Shown here: positions 1,855 to 45,190 of the stretch, piece after piece | How positions within the stretch are numbered: the stretch's first letter is position 1 | Layout: the number at the start of each line of letters is the position of its first letter | DNA from: a phage | Direction: 5' to 3' (one strand) | Sequence record: PZ050807.1 | Length of the DNA stretch: 45,190 nt | The notes under the pieces: model-generated | The model's input: the letters and a program-made list of their open reading frames with translations, nothing else | Database searches by the model: none | What the model was told of the DNA's origin: nothing | Made by a program: the position numbers and the translations under genes

Positions 1855-2736
1855 ATGGTTACTAAAACAAACATCCCAGCGGATATTACGGCGCTGAAAA
1901 ATTCTACTTCATCATTGTCGTCTGACAAGATGGATAAGTCAGCCAATTTGTCGGACCTTGCAGACAAAACTGTGGCGCGAAGTAATCTTGGTTTAGGGTC
2001 AGCAGCCACGTTGGACGTAGGGGATAGCGGCGGAAACGCGATGAAGGTTGGTGATTTTGGATTGGGGCGACCTAACGGCGCTAAGGTTTTCTATACTACC
2101 TCGCAAGACACGCTACTTGCTGGACTGGACCAATACGGTTTATGTGTGTTCAGGAACGACCTGCAGATCGCTGCGCCGTGGGATATTTGGAACTATTCAT
2201 CAAACCTGTTCTTCCGCGCCGGAGATACTTACAGTATGCTAAGCATACCGTTTGAGGCGGCTGGTAAGGTGAAGGTTTTCGGCGGTGCCGCGGGTTACGG
2301 GTGGAAGACAGGGCGAACACTGCTCGATAACACAACGACGACTATTGACACTAACGGATTTGTCAAGCAAGCATCGCCGATTGTTAAAGTATTTGGTGAT
2401 GGTAAATTTGAGGTTAATGAAGAGTCGAAAGGGGCTAGTGTAGATCGCATATCCGTCGGCGTTTATCGTATCTCTGGTGTTCTCGGTCTTAACTCAGATG
2501 CGGCCTGGGGTGGCGTAGGCGGTGGCTTCGAGATTCCGGTAGACATCAACAAGCAGCCGCGGGTGTGGGTTGACTTCGAGGTTGAGCCTGAAGGGTCTAT
2601 CATTCTTAAAACGTACCACCGGACACACGACACGGCTCCGTCTTTTGCAAAAAACATAATTGACGGCGTTAATGACGGCGATCCGGTAGATATTCCATCA
2701 GACGCTTTTATCTCAGTTCGCGTTAACATGCCGTAA
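1855..2736 (+). CDS. Tail fibre protein (second fibre / receptor-binding candidate)
   Basis: N-terminal motif ANLSDLADKTVARSNLGLGSAATLDVG, characteristic of phage tail-fibre N-termini; Gly-rich beta-type C-terminus; RBS-like GAGGG upstream. Confidence 0.55.
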   Translation: MVTKTNIPADITALKNSTSSLSSDKMDKSANLSDLADKTVARSNLGLGSAATLDVGDSGGNAMKVGDFGLGRPNGAKVFYTTSQDTLLAGLDQYGLCVFRNDLQIAAPWDIWNYSSNLFFRAGDTYSMLSIPFEAAGKVKVFGGAAGYGWKTGRTLLDNTTTTIDTNGFVKQASPIVKVFGDGKFEVNEESKGASVDRISVGVYRISGVLGLNSDAAWGGVGGGFEIPVDINKQPRVWVDFEVEPEGSIILKTYHRTHDTAPSFAKNIIDGVNDGDPVDIPSDAFISVRVNMP

Positions 2737-2740
2737 GTGG

Positions 2741-2766
2741 AAAGGGGCCAAACGGCCCCTTTTTCA
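2741..2766. terminator. Bidirectional intrinsic terminator between convergent genes
   Basis: Hairpin AGGGGCC-AAAC-GGCCCCT (2743..2760) followed by TTTTT; A/T-rich on the other side. Confidence 0.7.
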
Positions 2767-3339
2767 TTGTGCGGATTCCCAGTCTATCTTTCGGCGTATT
2801 GTAGGACTTTCGAAATACTCTTTGCCGTCTACTTCAACCAAAGGCCAGTCGTTCACAATGGCGTATGGATCTGCGACCTCTTCGATTATGCCGGTGGCTT
2901 TATGCTGACCAAACCCTACCAGCACCAGAATCACCCCGGCAACGCGACGCTCCATATACTCGTATGCGCAACGTGCTTCAACCAGACCGCGACGGATGCC
3001 GGTAGTGGCCTTCACTTCGTACGACCAGACGGCATCAATAACTTGGTCTTTGTAATCCGGCCCTACTTTCACTTTGCGCTTACCAAGCATTACCACATCG
3101 CCACGGTTCATGGTGTTGCCGCTAAATAATCCGGTGCGCTGGAGTAAGCCTTGCGGGATGCAACTGCGACCGCCGGTTTGCCCTTCCAGATACATCCCTG
3201 CGAACATCTCGCCAAGTACACCAACGAGACGGCTTTGCTTGCACGCGTCGGAACGGTTACGCCAGTAGTCAAACTCAATGCTTGCAATCAACGATGCCAG
3301 ATGAAATGCTTTGCCAGATAATTCATATTCACCGTACAT
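2764..3339 (-). CDS. Hypothetical protein, 191 aa (last gene of the leftward early operon)
   Basis: Long ORF with RBS AAGGAG 8 nt upstream of the ATG at 3339; no motif recognised. Confidence 0.55.
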   Translation of the reverse strand: MYGEYELSGKAFHLASLIASIEFDYWRNRSDACKQSRLVGVLGEMFAGMYLEGQTGGRSCIPQGLLQRTGLFSGNTMNRGDVVMLGKRKVKVGPDYKDQVIDAVWSYEVKATTGIRRGLVEARCAYEYMERRVAGVILVLVGFGQHKATGIIEEVADPYAIVNDWPLVEVDGKEYFESPTIRRKIDWESAQ

Positions 3340-3894: not shown

Positions 3895-3932
3895 TGGTTA
3901 ATATAGTGCAACCAAATACGGATTGCAACCAA
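3895..3932 (-). promoter_or_regulatory. Sigma70-type early promoter (minus strand): -35 TTGCAA, 17-nt spacer ending in ATTGGTTGCAC, -10 TATATT
   Basis: Read on the minus strand: TTGCAA(3928..3923)-17 nt-TATATT(3905..3900); two copies of the TTGGTTGCA motif. Confidence 0.55.
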
Positions 3933-5352: not shown

Positions 5353-5390
5353 CCCCCAATATAATGCAACCAATCTCGCAATGCAACCAA
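5353..5390 (-). promoter_or_regulatory. Sigma70-type early promoter (minus strand) of the TTGGTTGCA family
   Basis: Minus strand: TTGCAT(5386..5381)-17 nt-TATATT(5363..5358); two TTGGTTGCA copies. Confidence 0.55.
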
Positions 5391-8288: not shown

Positions 8289-8327
8289 CTTAAATGCCTC
8301 GTTAGTCCTAACCTGCACACTATATCT

Positions 8328-8606
8328 TTATGCGACCAATTCCGCAACCAATAAATCAGCGTCGTGAATGTTGTCGATTACGCGAACGTCGGCCCCGCGC
8401 TTCGCCATGCGCTCATGTTCACGTACCTGGTGCGGCTTCGGCTTACCACCGGGGCGCTTCACTTCAACGAATACGACTCTGCCGTTGATGATGATAATCA
8501 GGTCGGGGGCGCCGGTACGCCCTTCCCATGCCATTTTACGGCAGAATCCACCTGCCTCTTTTACCTCTTTCATCAGGTGACTTTGCACCTTGCCTTCAGG
8601 AGTCAT
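8328..8606 (-). CDS. VRR-NUC domain nuclease
   Basis: PDLIIIINGRVVFVEVKRPGGKPKPHQ matches the VRR-NUC (PD-(D/E)XK) signature; TAATG overlap with the polymerase stop. Confidence 0.6.
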   Translation of the reverse strand: MTPEGKVQSHLMKEVKEAGGFCRKMAWEGRTGAPDLIIIINGRVVFVEVKRPGGKPKPHQVREHERMAKRGADVRVIDNIHDADLLVAELVA

Positions 8607-17461: not shown

Positions 17462-17542
17462 GCGCATTGGTTGCCAATATGGTTAATTTGTGCGCGCATT
17501 GGTTGCCAGATTGGGCATTAAATCTATATCGCATTGGTTGCC
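17462..17542 (+). repeat. Three direct iterons GCGCATTGGTTGCC spaced about 35 bp apart (candidate origin or operator array)
   Basis: Repeat copies at 17462, 17494 and 17530, immediately after the primase-helicase stop. Confidence 0.6.
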
Positions 17543-17755: not shown

Positions 17756-17907
17756 AGCTCTGGTTGCATAATCAACGGCAGCATAGTGAAAAATGCGGCG
17801 GGGGTAGATCTCGGCAACCAATGCGAGTTGAAGAGTGGAGAGTGAAAAATGCAGTTTGCAATTGCAACTCATAGCGATCAGCATTTTCATGCGCGTGATT
17901 AATATTG

Positions 17908-17936
17908 GTTGCACCCACCTTGGCACCTTGCTATAT
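17908..17936 (+). promoter_or_regulatory. Rightward promoter of the TTGGTTGCA family: -35 TTGCAC, 17 nt, -10 TATATT
   Basis: TTGCAC(17908..17913)-17 nt-TATATT(17931..17936). Confidence 0.5.
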
Positions 17937-17965
17937 TGGCTGCACACCATCATGAGGACTGAACA

Positions 17966-27687: not shown

Positions 27688-28449
27688 TTAGCGCGGAATA
27701 CCGCAGATTTCGTTTAGTGTCTTCACGTCAAGCGCTACTGCCGTTGACTTCTTCTCTTCCTGCGGGATGAACTGTTTCACTTCAGGCCATGCCTTAATAA
27801 GTTTGGTGTCTGTAGTGTACTTATTCAGAGTACCCATAACTGACAATTTAAACTCATCGTATTTAGCACGTAAATCGCGGCGCGCCTTGTCGTTCTTATC
27901 CAGACGTTTGCAAAATTCATGCTCTGCCGGGTAATCTGCACGACCGCGAGGCTTGTAGATCGGCACTTGCTCACCTTCCGCGTTAATTTCCACCAGCGCC
28001 GTAAGTAGCGCAGTTTCAAACCCAGGTACGATTTCGCCAATGTCCGGGGCCATCGAGTTATTGTAGCGGTCTTCCCAGTAGCCTCGGTGACAGCGGCTGC
28101 TGTAGTTATCACCGCTCAATGACAGTGTGCGGATGTTACCACCCATGTTGACTTCGAACGTTGCATCGTACACAGCACCAATGCCGTGGGGCATGTCCTT
28201 GTTATGGCTGAAGGTTGCACGGCTGGCGTACACGCTTATGCTAAACATGCCGTTATTTGTGTCTTGATAGCTGCGCATCATTTTCTGCAACCCAACGAAG
28301 CTGGTAACACCTTTCGGCATCTGATCCAGAGTGATAGCCAGCGCCAGGTCGCGCGATTCGGTCATTAACTTTTTGGCCTGCTTCGTGATTTCGTGGCCTG
28401 CCAGGATGTTAGCCAGGATTTGCTTTTTAATGTCTTTAGTCAGTCTCAT
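27688..28449 (-). CDS. Hypothetical protein, 253 aa; inverted single-gene cassette inside the head module
   Basis: Start at MRLTKDIK (ATG 28449, RBS AGGAAACAACA); own early-type promoter and terminator. Confidence 0.5.
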   Translation of the reverse strand: MRLTKDIKKQILANILAGHEITKQAKKLMTESRDLALAITLDQMPKGVTSFVGLQKMMRSYQDTNNGMFSISVYASRATFSHNKDMPHGIGAVYDATFEVNMGGNIRTLSLSGDNYSSRCHRGYWEDRYNNSMAPDIGEIVPGFETALLTALVEINAEGEQVPIYKPRGRADYPAEHEFCKRLDKNDKARRDLRAKYDEFKLSVMGTLNKYTTDTKLIKAWPEVKQFIPQEEKKSTAVALDVKTLNEICGIPR

Positions 28450-28479: not shown

Positions 28480-28508
28480 AATATATTGCAACCAATTAGC
28501 CAATGCAA
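28480..28508 (-). promoter_or_regulatory. Early-type promoter (minus strand): -35 TTGCAT, 17 nt with ATTGGTTGCAA, -10 TATATT
   Basis: Minus strand: TTGCAT(28508..28503)-17 nt-TATATT(28485..28480). Confidence 0.5.
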
Positions 28509-28515
28509 GCAAATT

Positions 28516-39299: not shown

Positions 39300-39907
39300 C
39301 CACGTTTAAATTATACGGCGTCTTAGGACGCCGTTTTGGTAAAGAGCATAAGCTGGACTGTTTCACACCAGGCGAGGGAATTACCGGTCTGTGTGTGAAA
39401 TTACCCGGCTTACAGGAATATTTAATGTCTGCGCACCTGGACAATATGATGTTCAAAGTGCGTAAAGGCGACCACACAATGGGAAGCACCGATGAACTGG
39501 GCGAATCCCACGGCAACCGCGTCATTACCATCGCGCCAGTTATGACGGGTGCAAAAAGCGGCTTAGGCCAATTGCTGGCTGGCGTGGCTATCGTAGTAGC
39601 CTCGTTCTATACGGGTGGTCTTGCAACTGCCGCTTTCGGAGCTTCCGCCGCCACCGCTGCCGCGATCGGGACCGCCACATTCTCATTCGGTATGTCAATG
39701 GCGCTGGGTGGTGTTATGCAGCTACTATCACCGCAACCGAAAGGATTGCAGACACGCCAGGATGTTGATAACAAAGCATCGTACGCGTTCGGCGGGCCAG
39801 TAAACACGACTGCGCAAGGGACCGCACTTGGTGTATTATGGGGCGAGCGTGAGATCGGCGGCGCTATTATTTCAGCCGGTATCGTAACTGAGGATTTACA
39901 CGAATGA
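39290..39907 (+). CDS. Tail assembly protein I-like
   Basis: Synteny; Gly/Ala-rich hydrophobic C-terminal half; start at MAMTTFKLYGV. Confidence 0.55.
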   Translation: MAMTTFKLYGVLGRRFGKEHKLDCFTPGEGITGLCVKLPGLQEYLMSAHLDNMMFKVRKGDHTMGSTDELGESHGNRVITIAPVMTGAKSGLGQLLAGVAIVVASFYTGGLATAAFGASAATAAAIGTATFSFGMSMALGGVMQLLSPQPKGLQTRQDVDNKASYAFGGPVNTTAQGTALGVLWGEREIGGAIISAGIVTEDLHE

Positions 39908-42900
39908 CTATCGTCTATTCCGTAACGGGCCATAAGGGCGGTGGCGGGAAACAGCATACCCCGCAAGAAACACCCGACAGCCTGCACTCGCTGGCTAAAA
40001 TCCGCATTCTGCTCGCATTGGGTGAGGGGGAATTTGAAGGCATCCCGTCGGCAGCAGAGCTACGCAAGCGCGTCTATCTGGACGGCACGCCGATCATGAA
40101 CGAGGATAACTCGGAAAACTTCCCTGGCGCGCGCGTTGAGTTCCGCCCAGGCACACAGCACCAGGACGTGATTCACGGATTTTCAGCCGTGGAAAGCGAG
40201 TCGTCGGTAAACGTCAAGCTGGAGCAGGGCTCACCGTGGGTACGTCAAATCACCGACACCAGTCTGGACGCGGTGCGCATTCGTATTGGCATTCCTGCGT
40301 TGTACACCAACGAAGATAACGGCGACCTGGTTGGTGGGCGTATCGACTATAAGATCGTGGTGTACACCGACAACGCCGATCCGCGTGAGTTTGCATTCGC
40401 TGCCGTTGGTAAAACAATGTCGCTGTATGAGCGCGACCACCGCATCGAATTACCGTCGAACGTTAACACCGGCTGGCGCGTCGAAGTGCACCGCATCACC
40501 GCAGACTCCACCTCGGCGAAAGTGGTAAACGATATTCGCGTACAATCTATCACCGAGATAATCGACGCCCGTTTGCGCTACCCGCTAACCGCGTTGCTGT
40601 TCGTTGAGTTTGATGCGAAGGCTTTCCAGGATATCCCGCGCGTGTCTATCAAGTGCAAAGGCCGCAAAGTGCTGATCCCGACCAACTACGACCCGATCGC
40701 ACATACCTATAGCGGCGACTGGGACGGCACTTTCAAGCGTGCATGGACGGATAACCCTGCGTGGCACTGGTACGATATTTGTATTACGGAACGCTTCGGC
40801 CTCGGTCGTCGCATCAAGCCGCAGATGCTAAACCGCTATGCGCTTTACCAGATTGCACAACGCTGCGATCAGATGGTTAGTGACGGCAACGGCGGACAAG
40901 AAATACGGTTTAAGAATGATATGTACATACAGTCGCAGACCGACGCATGGACCGTTCTGAAGGACTTAGCCGCCATCTTCGCCGGAATGACCTGGTGGGG
41001 CAATCAGATGCTGAATATTGTCAGTGACCAACCAGTCGCTGCGGTTTCGCACACCATTACGAATGCCTCCGTTATTGATGGGCGATTCGATTATGCGTCT
41101 GGCAGCCAGAAGACTCGCTATTCAACATTCGCGGTGGCATACGGCAATCCGGCTAACCACTACGATGACGCAATCGCAACGGGCCAGCGCGTGGAACTGG
41201 TGCGCCGCCACAAGATTAACCGCCTTGATATTACGGCGATCGGCTGTACGCGTGAATCTGAAGCGCAACGCCGCGGTCACTGGGCGCTTATTTCAAACCA
41301 GCTTGACCAGCAGGTGAGCTTTAAAGTAGGTATGGAAGGTCTGTTCTTCATTCCGGGGAGCGTGGTCGCTATCGCCGACACCAACATTTCCGGCGGTTTC
41401 GAGATTCGCGGCGGTCGCTTACTGGAAGACCCAGGCACGCGCACGGTGCTTAACACAGACGAAGAAATCACATTCCGCCCAGGTGATAAATTCCTGGTGC
41501 GCACTGCGAACGGTAGTGTCGAGACTCGCGCAATATCAAGCGTCAACGGCAACAAGGTTACGTTATCCAGTGCCCTGGATGCCGACCCGATCCCGTTCCA
41601 GCCGTTTTGCGTCGACGGTGATGATATTCAGGTGCAGAAGTTCCGCATCACCGATCTGGAGTATGACGACGCAACCAGCACTTTCTCGGTGCGCGGGATT
41701 GAGTACAACGACAGCAAATATGATGCCGTTGATAATGGCGCTCGTCTTGATCCTGGCATCTTTACGCAAATGCCGGACGGTGTGCTGAAGGGGCCGGAAT
41801 CCGTAACCATTACCCCGTCGCAGATTTCAAGCCAGGGTCAGTTAATCACCAACGTGGATATTGTCTTTCCACCGGTGAAAAATGCCGTTGTATATGAAAT
41901 CCAGTGGCGAAGGACCAGCCTTCAGAATATGGCGTTGCAGTGGGGTAACGACTGGGTAAACTTGCCTCGTACGCCGTCGAACGGTGCACACATCCCCAAC
42001 GTGTTCTCCGGTAACTACCAGGCGCGCGTCCGCGCAATCGGTATGGGTGAAATCTCATCCCCGTGGGTAGAGTCTGCCATCACGCCGATCGAGGGTCGTT
42101 TAGGTGGGCTGAATGCGCCAATCATTACGGCGGCAGTTTCCGGTTTGCATCAGATCTTGTGGAAGTGGAATCACAACAACGCTGCGACCGATATTTCATA
42201 CACAGAGCTTGAAGTGCGCAAGCCAGGGACTGAAGAGTGGCACTTCCTCACTAACGTGCCGTACCCAGGCGCGGAGTACGCGCAGACTTCGCTTGAGTTC
42301 GGGATTTACCAGCAGTTGCGAGCACGCGTAGCAGATAAAATCGGCAACCTGTCCGATTGGTCCGCACCGTTTGAAGGCCAGGTGAGCGATAAAGTTGACG
42401 ACTACATGAAGGGACTCGACGATGAGTTTCTTACTTCTGAAGACGGCAAGCACTTCCAGGAACAGATCGACACGTTCCCGCAAGGCATTTACGAGTCAAT
42501 GCTTACGGACGCGCAGCAGTTGCTTAACGCACGTGCCGAGTATCAAGGTATTTACGCCGAGATCAAAGTGGCCTATACCGTTGCTGCCGATGCGCACCAG
42601 GCGGTCGCTGAACTGGAAACGCTGATCGGCACGCGCCTTGATGATGCGGAAGCCGCAATCCATACGCTACAGACTGCGCAGAGCACACACGAACAGGCGT
42701 TCGCTCAGTACCAGCAAACGGTGTCAGCTAAGTTTGGCGATCAGGAAGCCGCAATCCAGTCAGTGCAAACGGCAACGAGTGATGTAGCCAGCGCTCTGGC
42801 GACCTACAAAACACAGGTAGCCGCGCAGTTCGGGCAACAGTCCGCCGCGATCGAGCAGAAAATGACGTCTACGTTTAACCACTCTGGTGGTAACGCAACC

Positions 42901-43350
42901 TACAGCCTGAAAGCTGGAGTGACGTACAACGGGACGTATTATGATGCCGGTATGCAGCTTTCGGTAGTTGCCGAAGGGAACTCGGTTAAATCGTGCATCG
43001 CGTTCAAGGCGGACCAGTTCTACATCATGCACCCGTCGAACGGTACGCTATCCTCCGCGTTCATCGTTGACGGCGGGCAGGTGTACATCGACACGGCCCG
43101 AATCAAGAACGCGTCCATTAACTTTGCGCAGATCACGGACACGCTGCAATCCAACAACTGGCAGCCTGGCAGCCAGGGGTGGCGAATCGCGAAGGATGGC
43201 GGCGCGGAGTTTAACAACGTGACAATCCGCGGCAACGTGTATGCGCAGACTGGTAACTTCGGTTTTTCAAGTGGGTCGGTACAAATCGACTGGTCGGGGG
43301 TAAACGTGCCGTTGCCTGGCGGAGGGCGGGTTAAAGTGGGGGTGTGGTAA
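39904..43350 (+). CDS. Central tail fibre / host-specificity protein J-like
   Basis: 1148 aa; N-terminus GHKGGGGKQHTPQETPDSLHSLAKIRIL is J-like; synteny. Confidence 0.8.
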   Translation: MTIVYSVTGHKGGGGKQHTPQETPDSLHSLAKIRILLALGEGEFEGIPSAAELRKRVYLDGTPIMNEDNSENFPGARVEFRPGTQHQDVIHGFSAVESESSVNVKLEQGSPWVRQITDTSLDAVRIRIGIPALYTNEDNGDLVGGRIDYKIVVYTDNADPREFAFAAVGKTMSLYERDHRIELPSNVNTGWRVEVHRITADSTSAKVVNDIRVQSITEIIDARLRYPLTALLFVEFDAKAFQDIPRVSIKCKGRKVLIPTNYDPIAHTYSGDWDGTFKRAWTDNPAWHWYDICITERFGLGRRIKPQMLNRYALYQIAQRCDQMVSDGNGGQEIRFKNDMYIQSQTDAWTVLKDLAAIFAGMTWWGNQMLNIVSDQPVAAVSHTITNASVIDGRFDYASGSQKTRYSTFAVAYGNPANHYDDAIATGQRVELVRRHKINRLDITAIGCTRESEAQRRGHWALISNQLDQQVSFKVGMEGLFFIPGSVVAIADTNISGGFEIRGGRLLEDPGTRTVLNTDEEITFRPGDKFLVRTANGSVETRAISSVNGNKVTLSSALDADPIPFQPFCVDGDDIQVQKFRITDLEYDDATSTFSVRGIEYNDSKYDAVDNGARLDPGIFTQMPDGVLKGPESVTITPSQISSQGQLITNVDIVFPPVKNAVVYEIQWRRTSLQNMALQWGNDWVNLPRTPSNGAHIPNVFSGNYQARVRAIGMGEISSPWVESAITPIEGRLGGLNAPIITAAVSGLHQILWKWNHNNAATDISYTELEVRKPGTEEWHFLTNVPYPGAEYAQTSLEFGIYQQLRARVADKIGNLSDWSAPFEGQVSDKVDDYMKGLDDEFLTSEDGKHFQEQIDTFPQGIYESMLTDAQQLLNARAEYQGIYAEIKVAYTVAADAHQAVAELETLIGTRLDDAEAAIHTLQTAQSTHEQAFAQYQQTVSAKFGDQEAAIQSVQTATSDVASALATYKTQVAAQFGQQSAAIEQKMTSTFNHSGGNATYSLKAGVTYNGTYYDAGMQLSVVAEGNSVKSCIAFKADQFYIMHPSNGTLSSAFIVDGGQVYIDTARIKNASINFAQITDTLQSNNWQPGSQGWRIAKDGGAEFNNVTIRGNVYAQTGNFGFSSGSVQIDWSGVNVPLPGGGRVKVGVW

Positions 43351-43356
43351 AACGCA

Positions 43357-43380
43357 AGGGGCCGTTTGGCCCCTTTCTTA
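43357..43380. terminator. Bidirectional intrinsic terminator
   Basis: AGGGGCC-GTTT-GGCCCCT followed by TTCTT; same stem as the terminators at 2743 and 27664. Confidence 0.65.
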
Positions 43381-44343
43381 ATACATATTAGGAAGGACAA
43401 TCAGCGGTGTTGGTACGACAACATTGCGGTTAGGCATCTGGAATTGCTGCCGTGAATAGTTGCCAATGACGCGGTTTTTCGCTGCACCAACGACGCTACC
43501 CGCCATGCGTATCCCGTTCATGCGTACGTGGTTATAACCGCTATTGTTTTCAATAAGCGCGCCCGTGTATGAAAGCTGAATAAGGCTGTTACCGATATTC
43601 TGCCACCCTGCGCTAAGGTCAACCGTCCCGTTAAACACAAACGGCTTATTGACGGTGGAGAATGTAACCTGGCCTGCGTTGTTGGTCATCGTGATACCGG
43701 TTCCGGGGCTTGGCGGTGTGTTATTGAATATAACCAATTCCATGTCAACGGCAGCACCCACATCATCAATCCCGCCGTAAGCCGCATTGCGGACGATAAT
43801 ACTGCCTCCATCGAAGCCAACCGACACGTTAGGGTCATCCCAACGGGCGAACGGAACACCTCCGACCGGCAGCGGCATACTTCCGTTCACATGGACGCGC
43901 TGCGCGTAGCGACAGGTCATCAGCCGAGCGACGTTTGATATGGCGGTGAAGTCCGTCGAGTTAGCCACCAGAAGCCCAGCATTACGCGACCCCACCGGCA
44001 GCACTTCCATAATCGTTCCCGCCCAGGTTGGAAGCCCGCTATAAGCGCCCAGCGCGTCAGCACCGTGCAGCGTAATTCCGCCATCACCATTTCGAGATAT
44101 TGACGTTACAAACATCGGATCGGGTATTACCAGTGTTTGGTCGAACACTTCCACCACTTCAACGGGATTAGTTAGCACGACTATAAGCTGCGATCCAGGC
44201 GTTAGCGGAGTATTGACTGTTAGCGTCTTGTCAGATTGGCAGCGCTGATTAAAATTGGTACAAAAAGACGGAGCACGAAGCCCCGCCGTAATTTCCATTC
44301 TTGGACGCCCATCGTTGTATTCGATAAGGATACCTGCACCCAT
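43378..44343 (-). CDS. Beta-rich hypothetical protein, 321 aa; inverted cassette between J and the tail-fibre genes
   Basis: G/N/T/V-rich with no catalytic motif; RBS GGGAG; co-transcribed with the upstream lipoprotein gene. Confidence 0.5.
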   Translation of the reverse strand: MGAGILIEYNDGRPRMEITAGLRAPSFCTNFNQRCQSDKTLTVNTPLTPGSQLIVVLTNPVEVVEVFDQTLVIPDPMFVTSISRNGDGGITLHGADALGAYSGLPTWAGTIMEVLPVGSRNAGLLVANSTDFTAISNVARLMTCRYAQRVHVNGSMPLPVGGVPFARWDDPNVSVGFDGGSIIVRNAAYGGIDDVGAAVDMELVIFNNTPPSPGTGITMTNNAGQVTFSTVNKPFVFNGTVDLSAGWQNIGNSLIQLSYTGALIENNSGYNHVRMNGIRMAGSVVGAAKNRVIGNYSRQQFQMPNRNVVVPTPLIVLPNMY

Positions 44344-44345
44344 AA

Positions 44346-44570
44346 TTACCACTCCCGTGATTTAACTGATACCGTACCAGAGAAGTTACCGTCTGAATCT
44401 GCCGCCAAACCGGTGAATCGCATGTCAATGTCTCCGGCAGCGACCTTTTGCCCGTCAACATAACGCAACATGCAGCTTCCCGCAACGTAGGTAACGCAAT
44501 CGCCATTATGACGCTCAACAGCACAACCAGACAGCATAGCAACGACTAAAATACTTAATAAAGTTTTCAT
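44346..44570 (-). CDS. Small lipoprotein, 74 aa (candidate superinfection-exclusion factor, Llp/Cor-like by context)
   Basis: Signal peptide MKTLLSILVVAMLSGC with canonical lipobox LSG-C; strong RBS AAAGGAGA; early-type promoter upstream. Confidence 0.55.
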   Translation of the reverse strand: MKTLLSILVVAMLSGCAVERHNGDCVTYVAGSCMLRYVDGQKVAAGDIDMRFTGLAADSDGNFSGTVSVKSREW

Positions 44571-44599
44571 GGTATCATCTCCTTTGTTTTGACAACTTA

Positions 44600-44628
44600 A
44601 ATATAGTGCAACCAATACGTGATTGCAA
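44600..44628 (-). promoter_or_regulatory. Early-type promoter (minus strand): -35 TTGCAA, 17 nt with ATTGGTTGCAC, -10 TATATT
   Basis: Minus strand: TTGCAA(44628..44623)-17 nt-TATATT(44605..44600). Confidence 0.55.
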
Positions 44629-44651
44629 CCAATTTATGAGGAGTTTTCGCT

Positions 44652-45190
44652 ATGGCAGCGGGTACACTTAACGTAACAAACAACAGCAAGGCCGTAACGG
44701 GGTCGGGCACGACGTTTACGTCATTGAAAGCGGGCGACTTTTTATCGCTGGTGGTGGGGCAAGTCCCGTACACCGTCGCTATTGAGTCAATCCAGAGCAA
44801 CACGGCGCTTACGCTGGCGCTGCCGTTTGACGGCCCAACGTCTACCGGTCTGGCGTGGGACTCCGTATCCCGCGATACGATGTCGCTGGCGACTATGGGT
44901 GTGACCGTACAGGCGCAGAAAGCGCTACGCATGTTGATTGCTGATGAAAACAACTGGCGAGCAATCTTCGGCGACGCAGAGCAAATCAGCGTGACACTGC
45001 CAAACGGCACGGTTATGCAGGGTATGTCGTGGGGATATTTGTCCAGCCTTCTAAAAGACGTCGATCCGGTTGAGCTTCAGAATATTGCCAACCAGGCGGT
45101 TAACGCTAAAAACCAGGCTGTAACGGCGAAGAACGACGCCGTGTCTGCTAAGAACGATGCGCAGACTGCGAAGACTGCCGCAGAAACAGC
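44652..45190 (+). CDS. Side tail fibre protein, N-terminal part (runs off the window end; continues at 1..1589)
   Basis: ATG 44652 with RBS GAGGAG; open to the window end; in frame with the ORF at the window start. Confidence 0.6.
   Translation, partial: MAAGTLNVTNNSKAVTGSGTTFTSLKAGDFLSLVVGQVPYTVAIESIQSNTALTLALPFDGPTSTGLAWDSVSRDTMSLATMGVTVQAQKALRMLIADENNWRAIFGDAEQISVTLPNGTVMQGMSWGYLSSLLKDVDPVELQNIANQAVNAKNQAVTAKNDAVSAKNDAQTAKTAAET
45100..45190. repeat. Terminal direct repeat (second copy of 1..91)
   Basis: 91/91 identity with the window start. Confidence 0.9.

What the first reader, a model, noticed from the sequence alone, without database searches (positions are those of the whole stretch)
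43378..44635. Inverted early-promoter cassette (lipoprotein plus 321-aa beta-rich protein) between J and the side tail fibre
Two minus-strand genes are inserted between plus-strand tail genes, bounded by a bidirectional terminator (43357..43380) and an early-type promoter (44600..44628). The first encodes a 74-aa lipoprotein with lipobox LSG-C. The second is a 321-aa G/N/T/V-rich protein with no recognisable catalytic motif. In T5 the Llp lipoprotein gene sits next to the receptor-binding protein gene and blocks the receptor, and phi80/T1-type phages carry Cor lipoproteins near tail-fibre genes. By analogy this looks like a superinfection-exclusion or receptor-masking module, with the 321-aa protein possibly a receptor-binding or partner protein. 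Neither protein is assigned by any motif I can see.
Basis: partly seen in the sequence, partly recalled or inferred. Interest (0 to 1): 0.75.

Follow-up and report, generated by a model that had tools for sequence, protein, structure and literature searches.

The report
Known phage LptD receptor-binding and exclusion module
The two backward-facing genes between the tail-tip gene J and the side tail fibre are the well-described host-recognition cassette of small E. coli siphophages: a receptor-binding protein for the outer-membrane protein LptD and a lipoprotein thought to block that receptor, so the finding is real but ordinary.

Summary
Two co-oriented minus-strand genes lie between J and the lateral tail fibre: a 74-aa lipoprotein at 44346..44570 and a 321-aa protein at 43378..44343. 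A conserved hairpin terminator and a promoter flank them.

The window is a complete Dhillonvirus genome, 99.6-99.9% identical to LM40P1 and Ioannina.

The 321-aa protein is Pfam DUF6453 (E 4e-123). It is 82% identical, without gaps, to the Oekolampad (Bas18) receptor-binding protein. That protein's cryo-EM structure bound to the LPS translocon LptDE is solved (PDB 9RPT, PNAS 2025).

The lipoprotein is Pfam PF24052 and 80% identical to Oekolampad's exclusion lipoprotein. It is homologous to Rtp45, solved on the periplasmic face of LptDE (9RPS). The lipid-anchor cysteine and the disulphide pair are conserved.

Maffei et al. 2021 described this "RBP locus downstream of gpJ". It works like T5 Llp/pb5 and Cor but is not homologous to them, and the predicted receptor is LptD, not FhuA.

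One minor addition: the cassette promoter belongs to a six-member promoter family in this genome built on the motif ATTGGTTGCA.

The parts
39904..43350 (+). J-like central tail-fibre / tail-tip protein (1148 aa). Its C-terminus is the presumed docking site for the separately encoded receptor-binding protein.
   Evidence: ORF. It is 91% identical to Oekolampad bas18_0024, the 'J-like tail tip protein'. The last 120 aa are 83/75/45% identical to J of Oekolampad, TheodorHerzl and Rtp (LptD-dependent by experiment for the first two, predicted for Rtp). The LPGGGRV..G tail is conserved. The docking role is inferred from the literature.
43356..43379 (.). GC-rich hairpin (8-bp stem, 4-nt loop) with a T-rich tail, between the convergent J and RBP genes; likely a bidirectional intrinsic terminator.
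   Evidence: Fold -16.3 kcal/mol (+ strand) and -17.4 kcal/mol (- strand), z -2.6/-3.5. A hairpin is kept at the same place in four phages, with a different stem sequence in TheodorHerzl and Rtp. Termination itself was not tested.
43378..44343 (-). Receptor-binding protein of the central tail fibre (321 aa, DUF6453); predicted receptor is LptD of the LptDE LPS translocon.
   Evidence: Pfam PF20051, E 3.8e-123. PDB 9rpt_C, E 8.5e-178. 82% identity with no gaps to bas18_0025. 34-36% identity at full length to Rtp44 and TheodorHerzl gp25.
44346..44570 (-). Outer-membrane lipoprotein (74 aa, PF24052), predicted superinfection-exclusion factor that binds the periplasmic face of LptDE.
   Evidence: Pfam PF24052, E 1.1e-20. 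PDB 9rps_D (Rtp45), E 1.3e-6. 80% identical to bas18_0026. Lipid-anchor C16 and the cysteine pair C25/C33 are invariant and align with Rtp45 C20, C30 and C38.
44600..44633 (-). Promoter of the cassette: ATTGG-TTGCAA(-35)-17 nt-TATATT(-10). A second ATTGGTTGCA copy fills the 3' part of the spacer. The two motif copies are at 44624..44633 and 44607..44616.
   Evidence: The first motif copy is conserved at the same position in Oekolampad, TheodorHerzl, Bas83, Bas84 and Lzu_P3. The lipoprotein ATG lies 29 nt downstream of the -10.
44653..45190 (+). Start of the lateral tail-fibre gene (context only). The gene runs off the window end and continues at the window start, because the window is a circular permutation of the genome.
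   Evidence: Sequence. Annotation of the 99.6% identical phage Ioannina.

Best explanation
This is the host-recognition cassette of a Dhillonvirus.

- **Transcription (inferred).** One minus-strand transcript starts at the ATTGGTTGCA-type sigma-70-like promoter at 44600..44633. It ends at the hairpin at 43356..43379. It encodes first the lipoprotein and then, 2 nt later, the 321-aa protein.
- **The 321-aa protein.** It is the terminal receptor-binding protein. It is made as a separate polypeptide. It is presumed to dock non-covalently onto the C-terminus of the J-like central fibre. [quoted passage not shown] This commits the phage to irreversible adsorption after the lateral fibres have dealt with O-antigen.
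- **The lipoprotein.** It is exported and lipidated at Cys16. The +2 residue is Ala, so by the +2 sorting rule it should go to the inner leaflet of the outer membrane. It binds LptDE from the periplasmic side and pushes a hairpin up the barrel lumen. This displaces loop EL4, so LptD can no longer accept the RBP. The effect is to block superinfection and to stop progeny being wasted on infected cells and on debris.

**Shown here:** gene structure, family membership, close homology to the solved proteins, conserved synteny and flanks.

**Shown elsewhere for homologues:** LptD-dependence of Oekolampad infection, the RBP-LptDE structure, and the Rtp45-LptDE structure.

**Inferred:** that this allele still binds LptD, that the lipoprotein excludes phage in vivo, docking on J, co-transcription, and timing of expression.
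For: - **Taxon:** 99.6-99.9% nucleotide identity to Dhillonvirus LM40P1 and Ioannina.
- **RBP:** DUF6453 at E 3.8e-123. PDB 9rpt_C at E 8.5e-178. 263 of 321 residues identical to bas18_0025 with no gaps, including the RQQFQ segment that contains Gln299, reported to hydrogen-bond LptD EL4 Ser350.
- **Lipoprotein:** PF24052 at E 1.1e-20. 80% identical to bas18_0026. Hit to Rtp45 chain 9rps_D. Three invariant cysteines.
- **Reference proteins:** Rtp44, Rtp45 and both Oekolampad proteins fall in the same two Pfam families.
- **Synteny:** the same J(+) / RBP(-) / lipoprotein(-) order in Ioannina, Oekolampad, TheodorHerzl, Rtp, Bas83, Bas84 and others.
- **Literature:** the RBP locus downstream of gpJ matches receptor specificity without exception (PMC8594841). 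Oeko-type loci of Bas83-85 are predicted to be LptD-specific. Structures and mechanism are in PMC12685063. [quoted passage not shown]
- **Promoter and terminator:**
Against: - No experiment has been done on this allele.
- 58 residues differ from RBP_Oeko. 37 of them are found in none of four close relatives, and they cluster at 237-247, 283-287 and 305-309. I could not place these on the solved interface, so an altered footprint on LptD, or a changed receptor, is not excluded.
- In the papers read, exclusion by Rtp45-type lipoproteins rests on a structure and a steric argument. No plating assay was found.
- SE_Oeko itself could not be expressed by those authors.
- Co-transcription and the timing of expression are unmeasured.
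- The -10 region of the promoter differs between this phage and Oekolampad/TheodorHerzl.
Confidence: 0.88

Rival explanations
1. Same module, different target. The private substitutions of this allele have moved its specificity to another outer-membrane protein, or to an LptD variant or epitope not used by Oekolampad.
For: 37 window-private substitutions are concentrated in three short segments, with 9 of 11 positions changed at 237-247. Only 4 database records share this allele at 99% or more; all others are at 86% or less. Single LptD point mutations abolish Oekolampad binding, so the interface is sensitive.
Against: Family members only 34-36% identical (Rtp44 96% identical to Bas01's RBP; Bas14) still associate with LptD. 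82% identity lies far inside that range. The Gln299 segment is conserved. The cognate lipoprotein is also Oeko-type.
Confidence: 0.07
2. The lipoprotein is not an exclusion factor. It would instead be an assembly or chaperone partner of the RBP, or a modulator of LPS export in the infected cell. On this view its linkage to the RBP reflects co-folding rather than receptor masking.
For: The two genes are tightly coupled by translation, with a 2-nt gap and the RBP's ribosome-binding site inside the lipoprotein's conserved SREW C-terminus. No in vivo exclusion assay was found for this family in the papers read.
Against: A lipidated periplasmic protein and a cytoplasmically assembled virion protein sit in different compartments. 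Rtp45 binds LptDE itself with an interface of about 1000 A2 and displaces EL4, the loop the RBP needs. In Gordonclarkvirinae podophages the two families are encoded about 46 kb apart, so they do not need co-translation.
Confidence: 0.05
3. The 321-aa protein is a host-directed 'moron' membrane protein, as PHROGs and several GenBank records label it, and is not a virion component.
For: phrog_1265 is labelled 'membrane protein; moron, auxiliary metabolic gene and host takeover'. RefSeq and Bas83/84 records carry the product name 'membrane protein'.
Against: The homologue is a soluble, purifiable protein that binds the extracellular face of LptDE. The label is an inherited annotation, not a test. 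The gene's position next to J and its match to receptor specificity across phages argue for a structural RBP.
Confidence: 0.02

Closest known systems
Oekolampad (Bas18, Dhillonvirus) bas18_0025 / bas18_0026: RBP_Oeko and SE_Oeko (PDB 9RPT, 9RPW, 9RQI)
   Same: Same genus. Same gene order and orientation between J and the lateral fibre. The RBP is 82% identical, the lipoprotein 80% and J 91%. The first promoter motif copy and the terminator hairpin are conserved.
   Different: 58 RBP substitutions, clustered at 237-247, 283-287 and 305-309. The -10 region differs, and this phage carries a second ATTGGTTGCA copy in the promoter spacer. This allele has not been tested experimentally.
Phage Rtp (Drexlerviridae) rtp44 / rtp45 (Rtp45-LptDE structure, PDB 9RPS)
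   Same: Same two Pfam families. Same J(+) / RBP(-) / lipoprotein(-) architecture with a terminator hairpin. The lipobox cysteine and the disulphide pair are conserved.
   Different: Only 34-35% (RBP) and 31% (lipoprotein) identity. Rtp44 lacks the RQQFQ segment. Different phage family. In Rtp the cassette is followed by recombination genes, not by the lateral fibre.
T5 pb5 (RBP) and Llp (exclusion lipoprotein) acting on FhuA
   Same: Same logic: a separately encoded RBP at the tip of the central fibre, plus a small outer-membrane lipoprotein that binds the receptor from the periplasm and makes it refractory (described).
   Different: No detectable sequence relation. The receptor is a TonB-dependent transporter. 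Llp acts by long-range allostery, whereas Rtp45 acts by physically displacing EL4.
Cor lipoproteins of T1, phi80 and N15 (phrog_1119)
   Same: Small phage lipoproteins encoded next to tail-fibre genes and credited with receptor (FhuA) inactivation (my own knowledge; the PHROG label appears).
   Different: The match is E 0.015 and covers only residues 1-30, i.e. the signal peptide. This is a different family (PF24052) with a different receptor.

Membership tests
LptD-type receptor-binding proteins of small siphophages (Pfam DUF6453 / PF20051; RBP_Oeko, Rtp44) | Full-length match to the family profile above the curated cut-off | tested here: met
   410.9 bits against a cut-off of 25, E 3.8e-123. 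Residues 4-297 align to profile positions 1-290 of 291.
LptD-type receptor-binding proteins of small siphophages (Pfam DUF6453 / PF20051; RBP_Oeko, Rtp44) | More than 30% identity at more than 99% coverage to an RBP of a phage with experimentally shown LptD dependence (criterion of the 2026 preprint) | tested here: met
   82% identity over 321 of 321 residues to bas18_0025, which is 9rpt_C. 35-36% at full length to TheodorHerzl gp25.
LptD-type receptor-binding proteins of small siphophages (Pfam DUF6453 / PF20051; RBP_Oeko, Rtp44) | [quoted passage not shown] | tested here: met
LptD-type receptor-binding proteins of small siphophages (Pfam DUF6453 / PF20051; RBP_Oeko, Rtp44) | J C-terminal domain of the LptD-associated type | tested here: inconclusive
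   The last 120 aa of J are 83/75/45% identical to J of Oekolampad, TheodorHerzl and Rtp (LptD-dependent or LptD-predicted phages), with a shared LPGGGRV tail. I did not compare with J of FhuA-, BtuB- or LamB-type phages, so specificity of the signal is not shown.
LptD-type receptor-binding proteins of small siphophages (Pfam DUF6453 / PF20051; RBP_Oeko, Rtp44) | Physical binding to LptDE and LptD-dependent infection | not testable with these tools
   Needs plating on lptD mutants and a pull-down or cryo-EM experiment.
Rtp45-type phage lipoproteins (Pfam PF24052 Phage_lipoprotein) | Profile match above the curated cut-off | tested here: met
   73.8 bits against a cut-off of 27, E 1.1e-20. Rtp45 itself scores 128 bits and SE_Oeko 76 bits on the same model.
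Rtp45-type phage lipoproteins (Pfam PF24052 Phage_lipoprotein) | Signal peptide with lipobox and lipid-anchor cysteine | tested here: met
   MKTLLSILVVAMLSG|C16, read directly from the sequence. The G-C pair is invariant in the alignment.
Rtp45-type phage lipoproteins (Pfam PF24052 Phage_lipoprotein) | Cysteine pair corresponding to the Rtp45 Cys30-Cys38 disulphide | tested here: met
   C25 and C33, with C-x7-C spacing, are invariant in all five sequences and align with Rtp45 C30/C38 (disulphide described).
Rtp45-type phage lipoproteins (Pfam PF24052 Phage_lipoprotein) | Binds the periplasmic face of LptDE and prevents RBP binding or infection | not testable with these tools
   Structure known only for Rtp45 (9RPS). 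An exclusion phenotype for this protein needs expression in trans and plating or adsorption assays.
Cor superinfection-exclusion lipoproteins (phrog_1119) | Significant profile match beyond the signal peptide | tested here: not met
   E 0.015, 16.7 bits, residues 1-30 only.
T5 Llp / pb5 | Detectable sequence homology to Llp (lipoprotein) or pb5 (RBP) | tested here: not met
   The PDB sequence search returned only 9rps_D for the lipoprotein (E limit 1) and only 9rpt_C for the 321-aa protein (E limit 0.01). The FhuA-pb5 entry 8A8C is cited as deposited. Fold-level similarity was not tested.

The most novel reading that the evidence does not exclude
Two modest possibilities remain open.

(a) The ATTGGTTGCA repeats overlap the -35 and fill the spacer of the cassette promoter and of at least five other promoters. 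They also occur as three GCGCGC-flanked copies after the helicase gene. They could be operators for a phage-encoded regulator that places the RBP/exclusion cassette under the same control as the non-structural genes. That would be an undescribed regulatory circuit of Dhillonviruses.

(b) The clustered private substitutions of this RBP allele (237-247, 283-287, 305-309) could re-shape its LptD footprint. It might then escape LptD resistance mutations, or exclusion, that stop Oekolampad-type phages.
Probability: 0.2. Interest if true: 0.35.

Novelty: already known. Interest (0 to 1): 0.12.

Why it matters
For genome annotation, both genes can now be named with confidence. They are an LptD-type receptor-binding protein and its cognate exclusion lipoprotein. 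GenBank and PHROGs still call them 'hypothetical', 'membrane protein' or 'moron'. The phage's terminal receptor can therefore be predicted as LptD.

For biology it adds little. The locus type was defined in 2021, and the structures of a protein 82% identical to the 321-aa protein bound to LptDE, and of a lipoprotein homologue (Rtp45) bound to LptDE, were published in 2025.

The allele is a natural variant that could help map which RBP loops tolerate change. The shared promoter motif is a small lead on how these phages time expression of the cassette.

Tried and rejected
- **Single-sequence structure prediction.** AlphaFold2 on the 321-aa protein alone gave pLDDT 29 and pTM 0.17. The model is unusable, so I ran no fold search. 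The 82% identity to a solved chain makes a model unnecessary.
- **Python access to loci.** L002 and several other loci were not available to scripts. I made the pairwise comparisons with protein comparison and the stored alignments instead.
- **Terminator scan.** The simple scan missed the J/RBP hairpin. Folding and cross-phage alignment recovered it.
- **Spacer miscount.** My first full-promoter pattern used a wrong spacer (N17 after TTGGTTGCA) and gave only chance-level hits. The correct N18 gave 6 hits against 0.09 expected.
- **Cor and Llp/pb5 membership.** Considered and rejected.
- **Literature on the motif.** A search for ATTGGTTGCA returned only unrelated primer sequences.
- **Literature on Kuravirus and LptD.** A search returned only the BASEL paper, which does not link them.
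Full report
**1. What is in the sequence**

The ORF list and the raw sequence show two co-oriented minus-strand genes. They lie between the 1148-aa J-like gene (39904..43350, +) and the lateral tail-fibre gene that starts at 44653 (+).

- The upstream gene (44346..44570) encodes 74 aa. It begins MKTLLSILVVAMLSG|C, a signal peptide with a lipobox and Cys16 as lipid anchor.
- The next gene (43378..44343) starts 2 nt after the lipoprotein's TAA. It encodes 321 aa rich in G, V, N and T (38%).
- Its GGGAG ribosome-binding site lies within the last codons (SREW) of the lipoprotein gene.

Between the J stop and the 321-aa stop lies an 8-bp GC hairpin (43356..43375) with U-rich tails on both strands. 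It folds at -16.3/-17.4 kcal/mol, z -2.6/-3.5.

A -35/-10 pair, TTGCAA-17-TATATT, sits at 44628..44600 on the minus strand, 29 nt upstream of the lipoprotein ATG.

**2. Where the window comes from**

The region is 99.6-99.9% identical to three 'Dhillonvirus LM40P1' records and to Escherichia phage Ioannina. It is about 76-78% identical to some 50 other Dhillonvirus genomes. The window is a circular permutation of a whole 45-kb Dhillonvirus genome.

In Ioannina the two genes are annotated 'hypothetical protein' and 'putative lipoprotein'.

**3. Identity of the two proteins**

*The 321-aa protein*
- It matches Pfam DUF6453 at 410.9 bits, E 3.8e-123.
- In the Protein Data Bank it hits one sequence, chain C of 9RPT/9RPW/9RQI, at E 8.5e-178 over residues 1-321.
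- That chain is the receptor-binding protein of Dhillonvirus Oekolampad (Bas18, bas18_0025), solved by cryo-EM bound to the LptDE lipopolysaccharide translocon (Dunbar et al., PNAS 2025, PMC12685063).
- BLASTP gives 263 of 321 identities (82%) with no gaps.

*The lipoprotein*
- It matches PF24052 'Phage lipoprotein family' at 73.8 bits, E 1.1e-20.
- It is 80% identical to bas18_0026, called SE_Oeko in that paper.
- It hits chain D of 9RPS, the Rtp45 lipoprotein of phage Rtp solved on LptDE, at E 1.3e-6.
- Rtp44, Rtp45 and both Oekolampad proteins fall in the same two Pfam families.
- In a five-sequence alignment the lipid-anchor cysteine and a C-x7-C pair (C25, C33 here) are invariant. They align with Rtp45 C20, C30 and C38, and the last two form the disulphide seen in the structure.

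**4. Conserved architecture**

The order J(+), RBP(-), lipoprotein(-) recurs in several phages:
- Ioannina, Oekolampad and TheodorHerzl (Bas14; RBP only 35-36% identical).
- The Drexlerviridae phage Rtp.
- Bas83, Bas84, Lzu_P3 and XJA18.

A hairpin is kept at the J/RBP junction in all four phages aligned. The stem sequence differs in TheodorHerzl and Rtp (GCCCC/GGGGC instead of GGGGCC/GGCCCC), which argues that the structure is what is maintained.

The intergenic region upstream of the lipoprotein gene is nearly identical in Oekolampad and TheodorHerzl, although their cassettes encode proteins only about 35% identical. This fits exchange of the cassette between conserved flanks.

tblastn finds the RBP family in 391 phage records and the lipoprotein family in 331. 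They come from Escherichia, Shigella, Klebsiella, Salmonella and other hosts.

**5. What the literature already says**

- Maffei et al. 2021 (PMC8594841) defined the 'bona fide RBP loci' directly downstream of gpJ in Drexlerviridae, Dhillonvirus, Nonagvirus and Seuratvirus. They reported that allelic variants match the terminal receptor without exception. They found LptD as the receptor of Bas01, 02, 14, 18, 19, 20 and 25 through resistant mutants, and they noted cognate superinfection-exclusion proteins.
- Humolli et al. 2025 predicted LptD for Bas83-85. Their loci are the closest BASEL relatives of this one (RBP 82-86% identical for Bas83 and Bas84; Bas85 matched at DNA and lipoprotein level only).
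[quoted passage not shown] It also suggested that the GpJ C-terminal domain mediates compatibility with the locus-encoded RBP.
- Dunbar et al. showed that RBP_Oeko inserts deeply into an open state of LptDE, with an interface of about 1700 A2 and polar contacts mainly with EL3-5 and EL11. Single LptD substitutions (Y671N, D352Y), EL11 or EL5 rearrangements, and the EL4 deletion imp4213 all confer resistance. Rtp45 binds the periplasmic side, sends a hairpin up the lumen and displaces EL4 by up to 20 A. This is proposed to preclude RBP binding.

**6. Mechanism for this locus, with status of each step**

*Shown here*
- The genes, their signals, family membership, close homology to the solved proteins, and conserved synteny.

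*Shown elsewhere for homologues*
- LptD dependence of infection.
- The RBP-LptDE structure.
- The lipoprotein-LptDE structure.

*Inferred*
- That this allele binds LptD.
- That the RBP docks on the J C-terminus.
- That the lipoprotein is sorted to the outer membrane (Ala at +2) and excludes phage in vivo. I found no plating assay for exclusion in the papers read.
- That both genes are co-transcribed.

Three observations bear on the docking inference:
- The J C-terminal 120 aa are 83/75/45% identical to those of Oekolampad, TheodorHerzl and Rtp.
- The RBP N-terminus carries invariant positions across alleles that are otherwise only about 35% identical overall.
- An N-terminal 34-aa remnant survives in Citrobacter phage HCF1.

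**7. How this allele differs**

Of the 58 differences from RBP_Oeko, 37 are absent from all four close relatives examined. They cluster at residues 237-247 (9 of 11 positions), 283-287 and 305-309. Residues 121-160 carry none.

I could not place these on the 9RPT coordinates, so whether they touch LptD is open. The RQQFQ segment that contains Gln299, reported to bond EL4 Ser350, is unchanged.

**8. The 'early-type' promoter**

- The 10-mer ATTGGTTGCA occurs 21 times in the window with at most one mismatch. 3.6 are expected, and 0 of 100 shuffles reach 21.
- The extended pattern TTGGTTGCA-N18-TATATT occurs six times against 0.09 expected. The sites are 3900..3932(-), 5358..5390(-), 8319..8351(-), 17905..17937(+), 28480..28512(-) and the cassette promoter 44600..44632(-).
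- Each site has a gene with a ribosome-binding site 28-47 nt downstream.
- Four drive small or non-structural genes, judged from gene size and the neighbouring Ioannina annotations. One drives another minus-strand gene embedded in the head module.
- At three sites, including the cassette, a second motif copy fills the spacer up to the -10.
- The first copy is conserved upstream of the lipoprotein gene in five other Dhillonviruses.

The timing of expression is not known.

**9. Comparison and membership**

The cassette works like T5 pb5/Llp and like the Cor systems, but it is not related to them by sequence:
- The Cor profile matches at E 0.015 over the signal peptide only.
- No Llp or pb5 chain appears in the PDB searches.

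It is a member of the DUF6453 / PF24052 LptD-type module by every sequence and synteny criterion I could test. Receptor binding and exclusion themselves cannot be tested here.

**10. Verdict**

Interest is low. The residual leads are the allele-specific loop substitutions, the ATTGGTTGCA promoter family, and the unlinked homologues in Gordonclarkvirinae podophages.

Noticed in passing
window 3900..3932(-), 5358..5390(-), 8319..8351(-), 17905..17937(+), 28480..28512(-), 44600..44632(-): A six-member promoter family, ATTGG-TTGCAa-17 nt-TATATT, against 0.09 expected by chance. Three members carry a second ATTGGTTGCA copy abutting the -10. The repeats may simply be promoter elements, or they may be binding sites for a phage regulator. 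No paper with this motif was found.
   Followed up: partly
window 17466..17542 (+), also 17813..17822(-) and 17904..17944(+): Three copies of GCGCGC-ATTGGTTGCC spaced 32 and 35 nt, just after the helicase gene, with further motif copies nearby. The arrangement looks iteron-like and could mark a replication origin or a regulatory hub.
   Followed up: no
window 27688..28449 (-), promoter 28480..28512: A second minus-strand gene is embedded among plus-strand head genes and is driven by the same promoter class. It encodes 253 aa and is annotated in Ioannina as 'nucleotide modification associated domain 5'. The RBP cassette is therefore not the only inverted unit in the structural region.
   Followed up: no
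L013 3174..4166 and 2135..3145; L014 2480..2806 (Escherichia phage ECBP2, Gordonclarkvirinae): Podophages of about 75-79 kb carry both families of the cassette, but unlinked. A 330-aa DUF6453 protein (E 2.7e-26) lies directly after a 336-aa protein with the J tail-tip domain PF09327. A 108-aa PF24052 lipoprotein (E 3.5e-36) lies about 46 kb away among small genes. This suggests these podophages also use an LptD-type RBP and exclusion lipoprotein. I found no paper saying so.
   Followed up: partly
L003 2772..3102 (Citrobacter phage HCF1, unverified assembly): This phage keeps a lipoprotein homologue (50% identity by tblastn). Only the first 34 codons of the RBP remain (76% identical). They are followed by a longer J (1238 aa). 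It looks like a decayed RBP locus beside a J with its own C-terminal extension.
   Followed up: partly
window 44346..44360 (-): The conserved C-terminal SREW / SKEW of the lipoproteins overlaps the ribosome-binding site (GGGAG) of the downstream RBP gene. Part of that protein conservation may therefore reflect a translational signal.
   Followed up: no
window 43356..44652 (+ strand): The hairpin after J should stop plus-strand transcription, and I saw no good plus-strand promoter in the 82-nt gap before the lateral tail-fibre gene. There is a perfect TTGACA at 44589..44594 without a matching -10, and a 10/12 site at 44228..44255 inside the RBP gene. How the lateral fibre genes are transcribed is unclear.
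   Followed up: no
window 43378..44343: Database labels for this protein are misleading. They include 'membrane protein', 'moron, auxiliary metabolic gene and host takeover' (phrog_1265) and 'hypothetical protein'. A solved homologue shows it to be a virion receptor-binding protein.
   Followed up: yes
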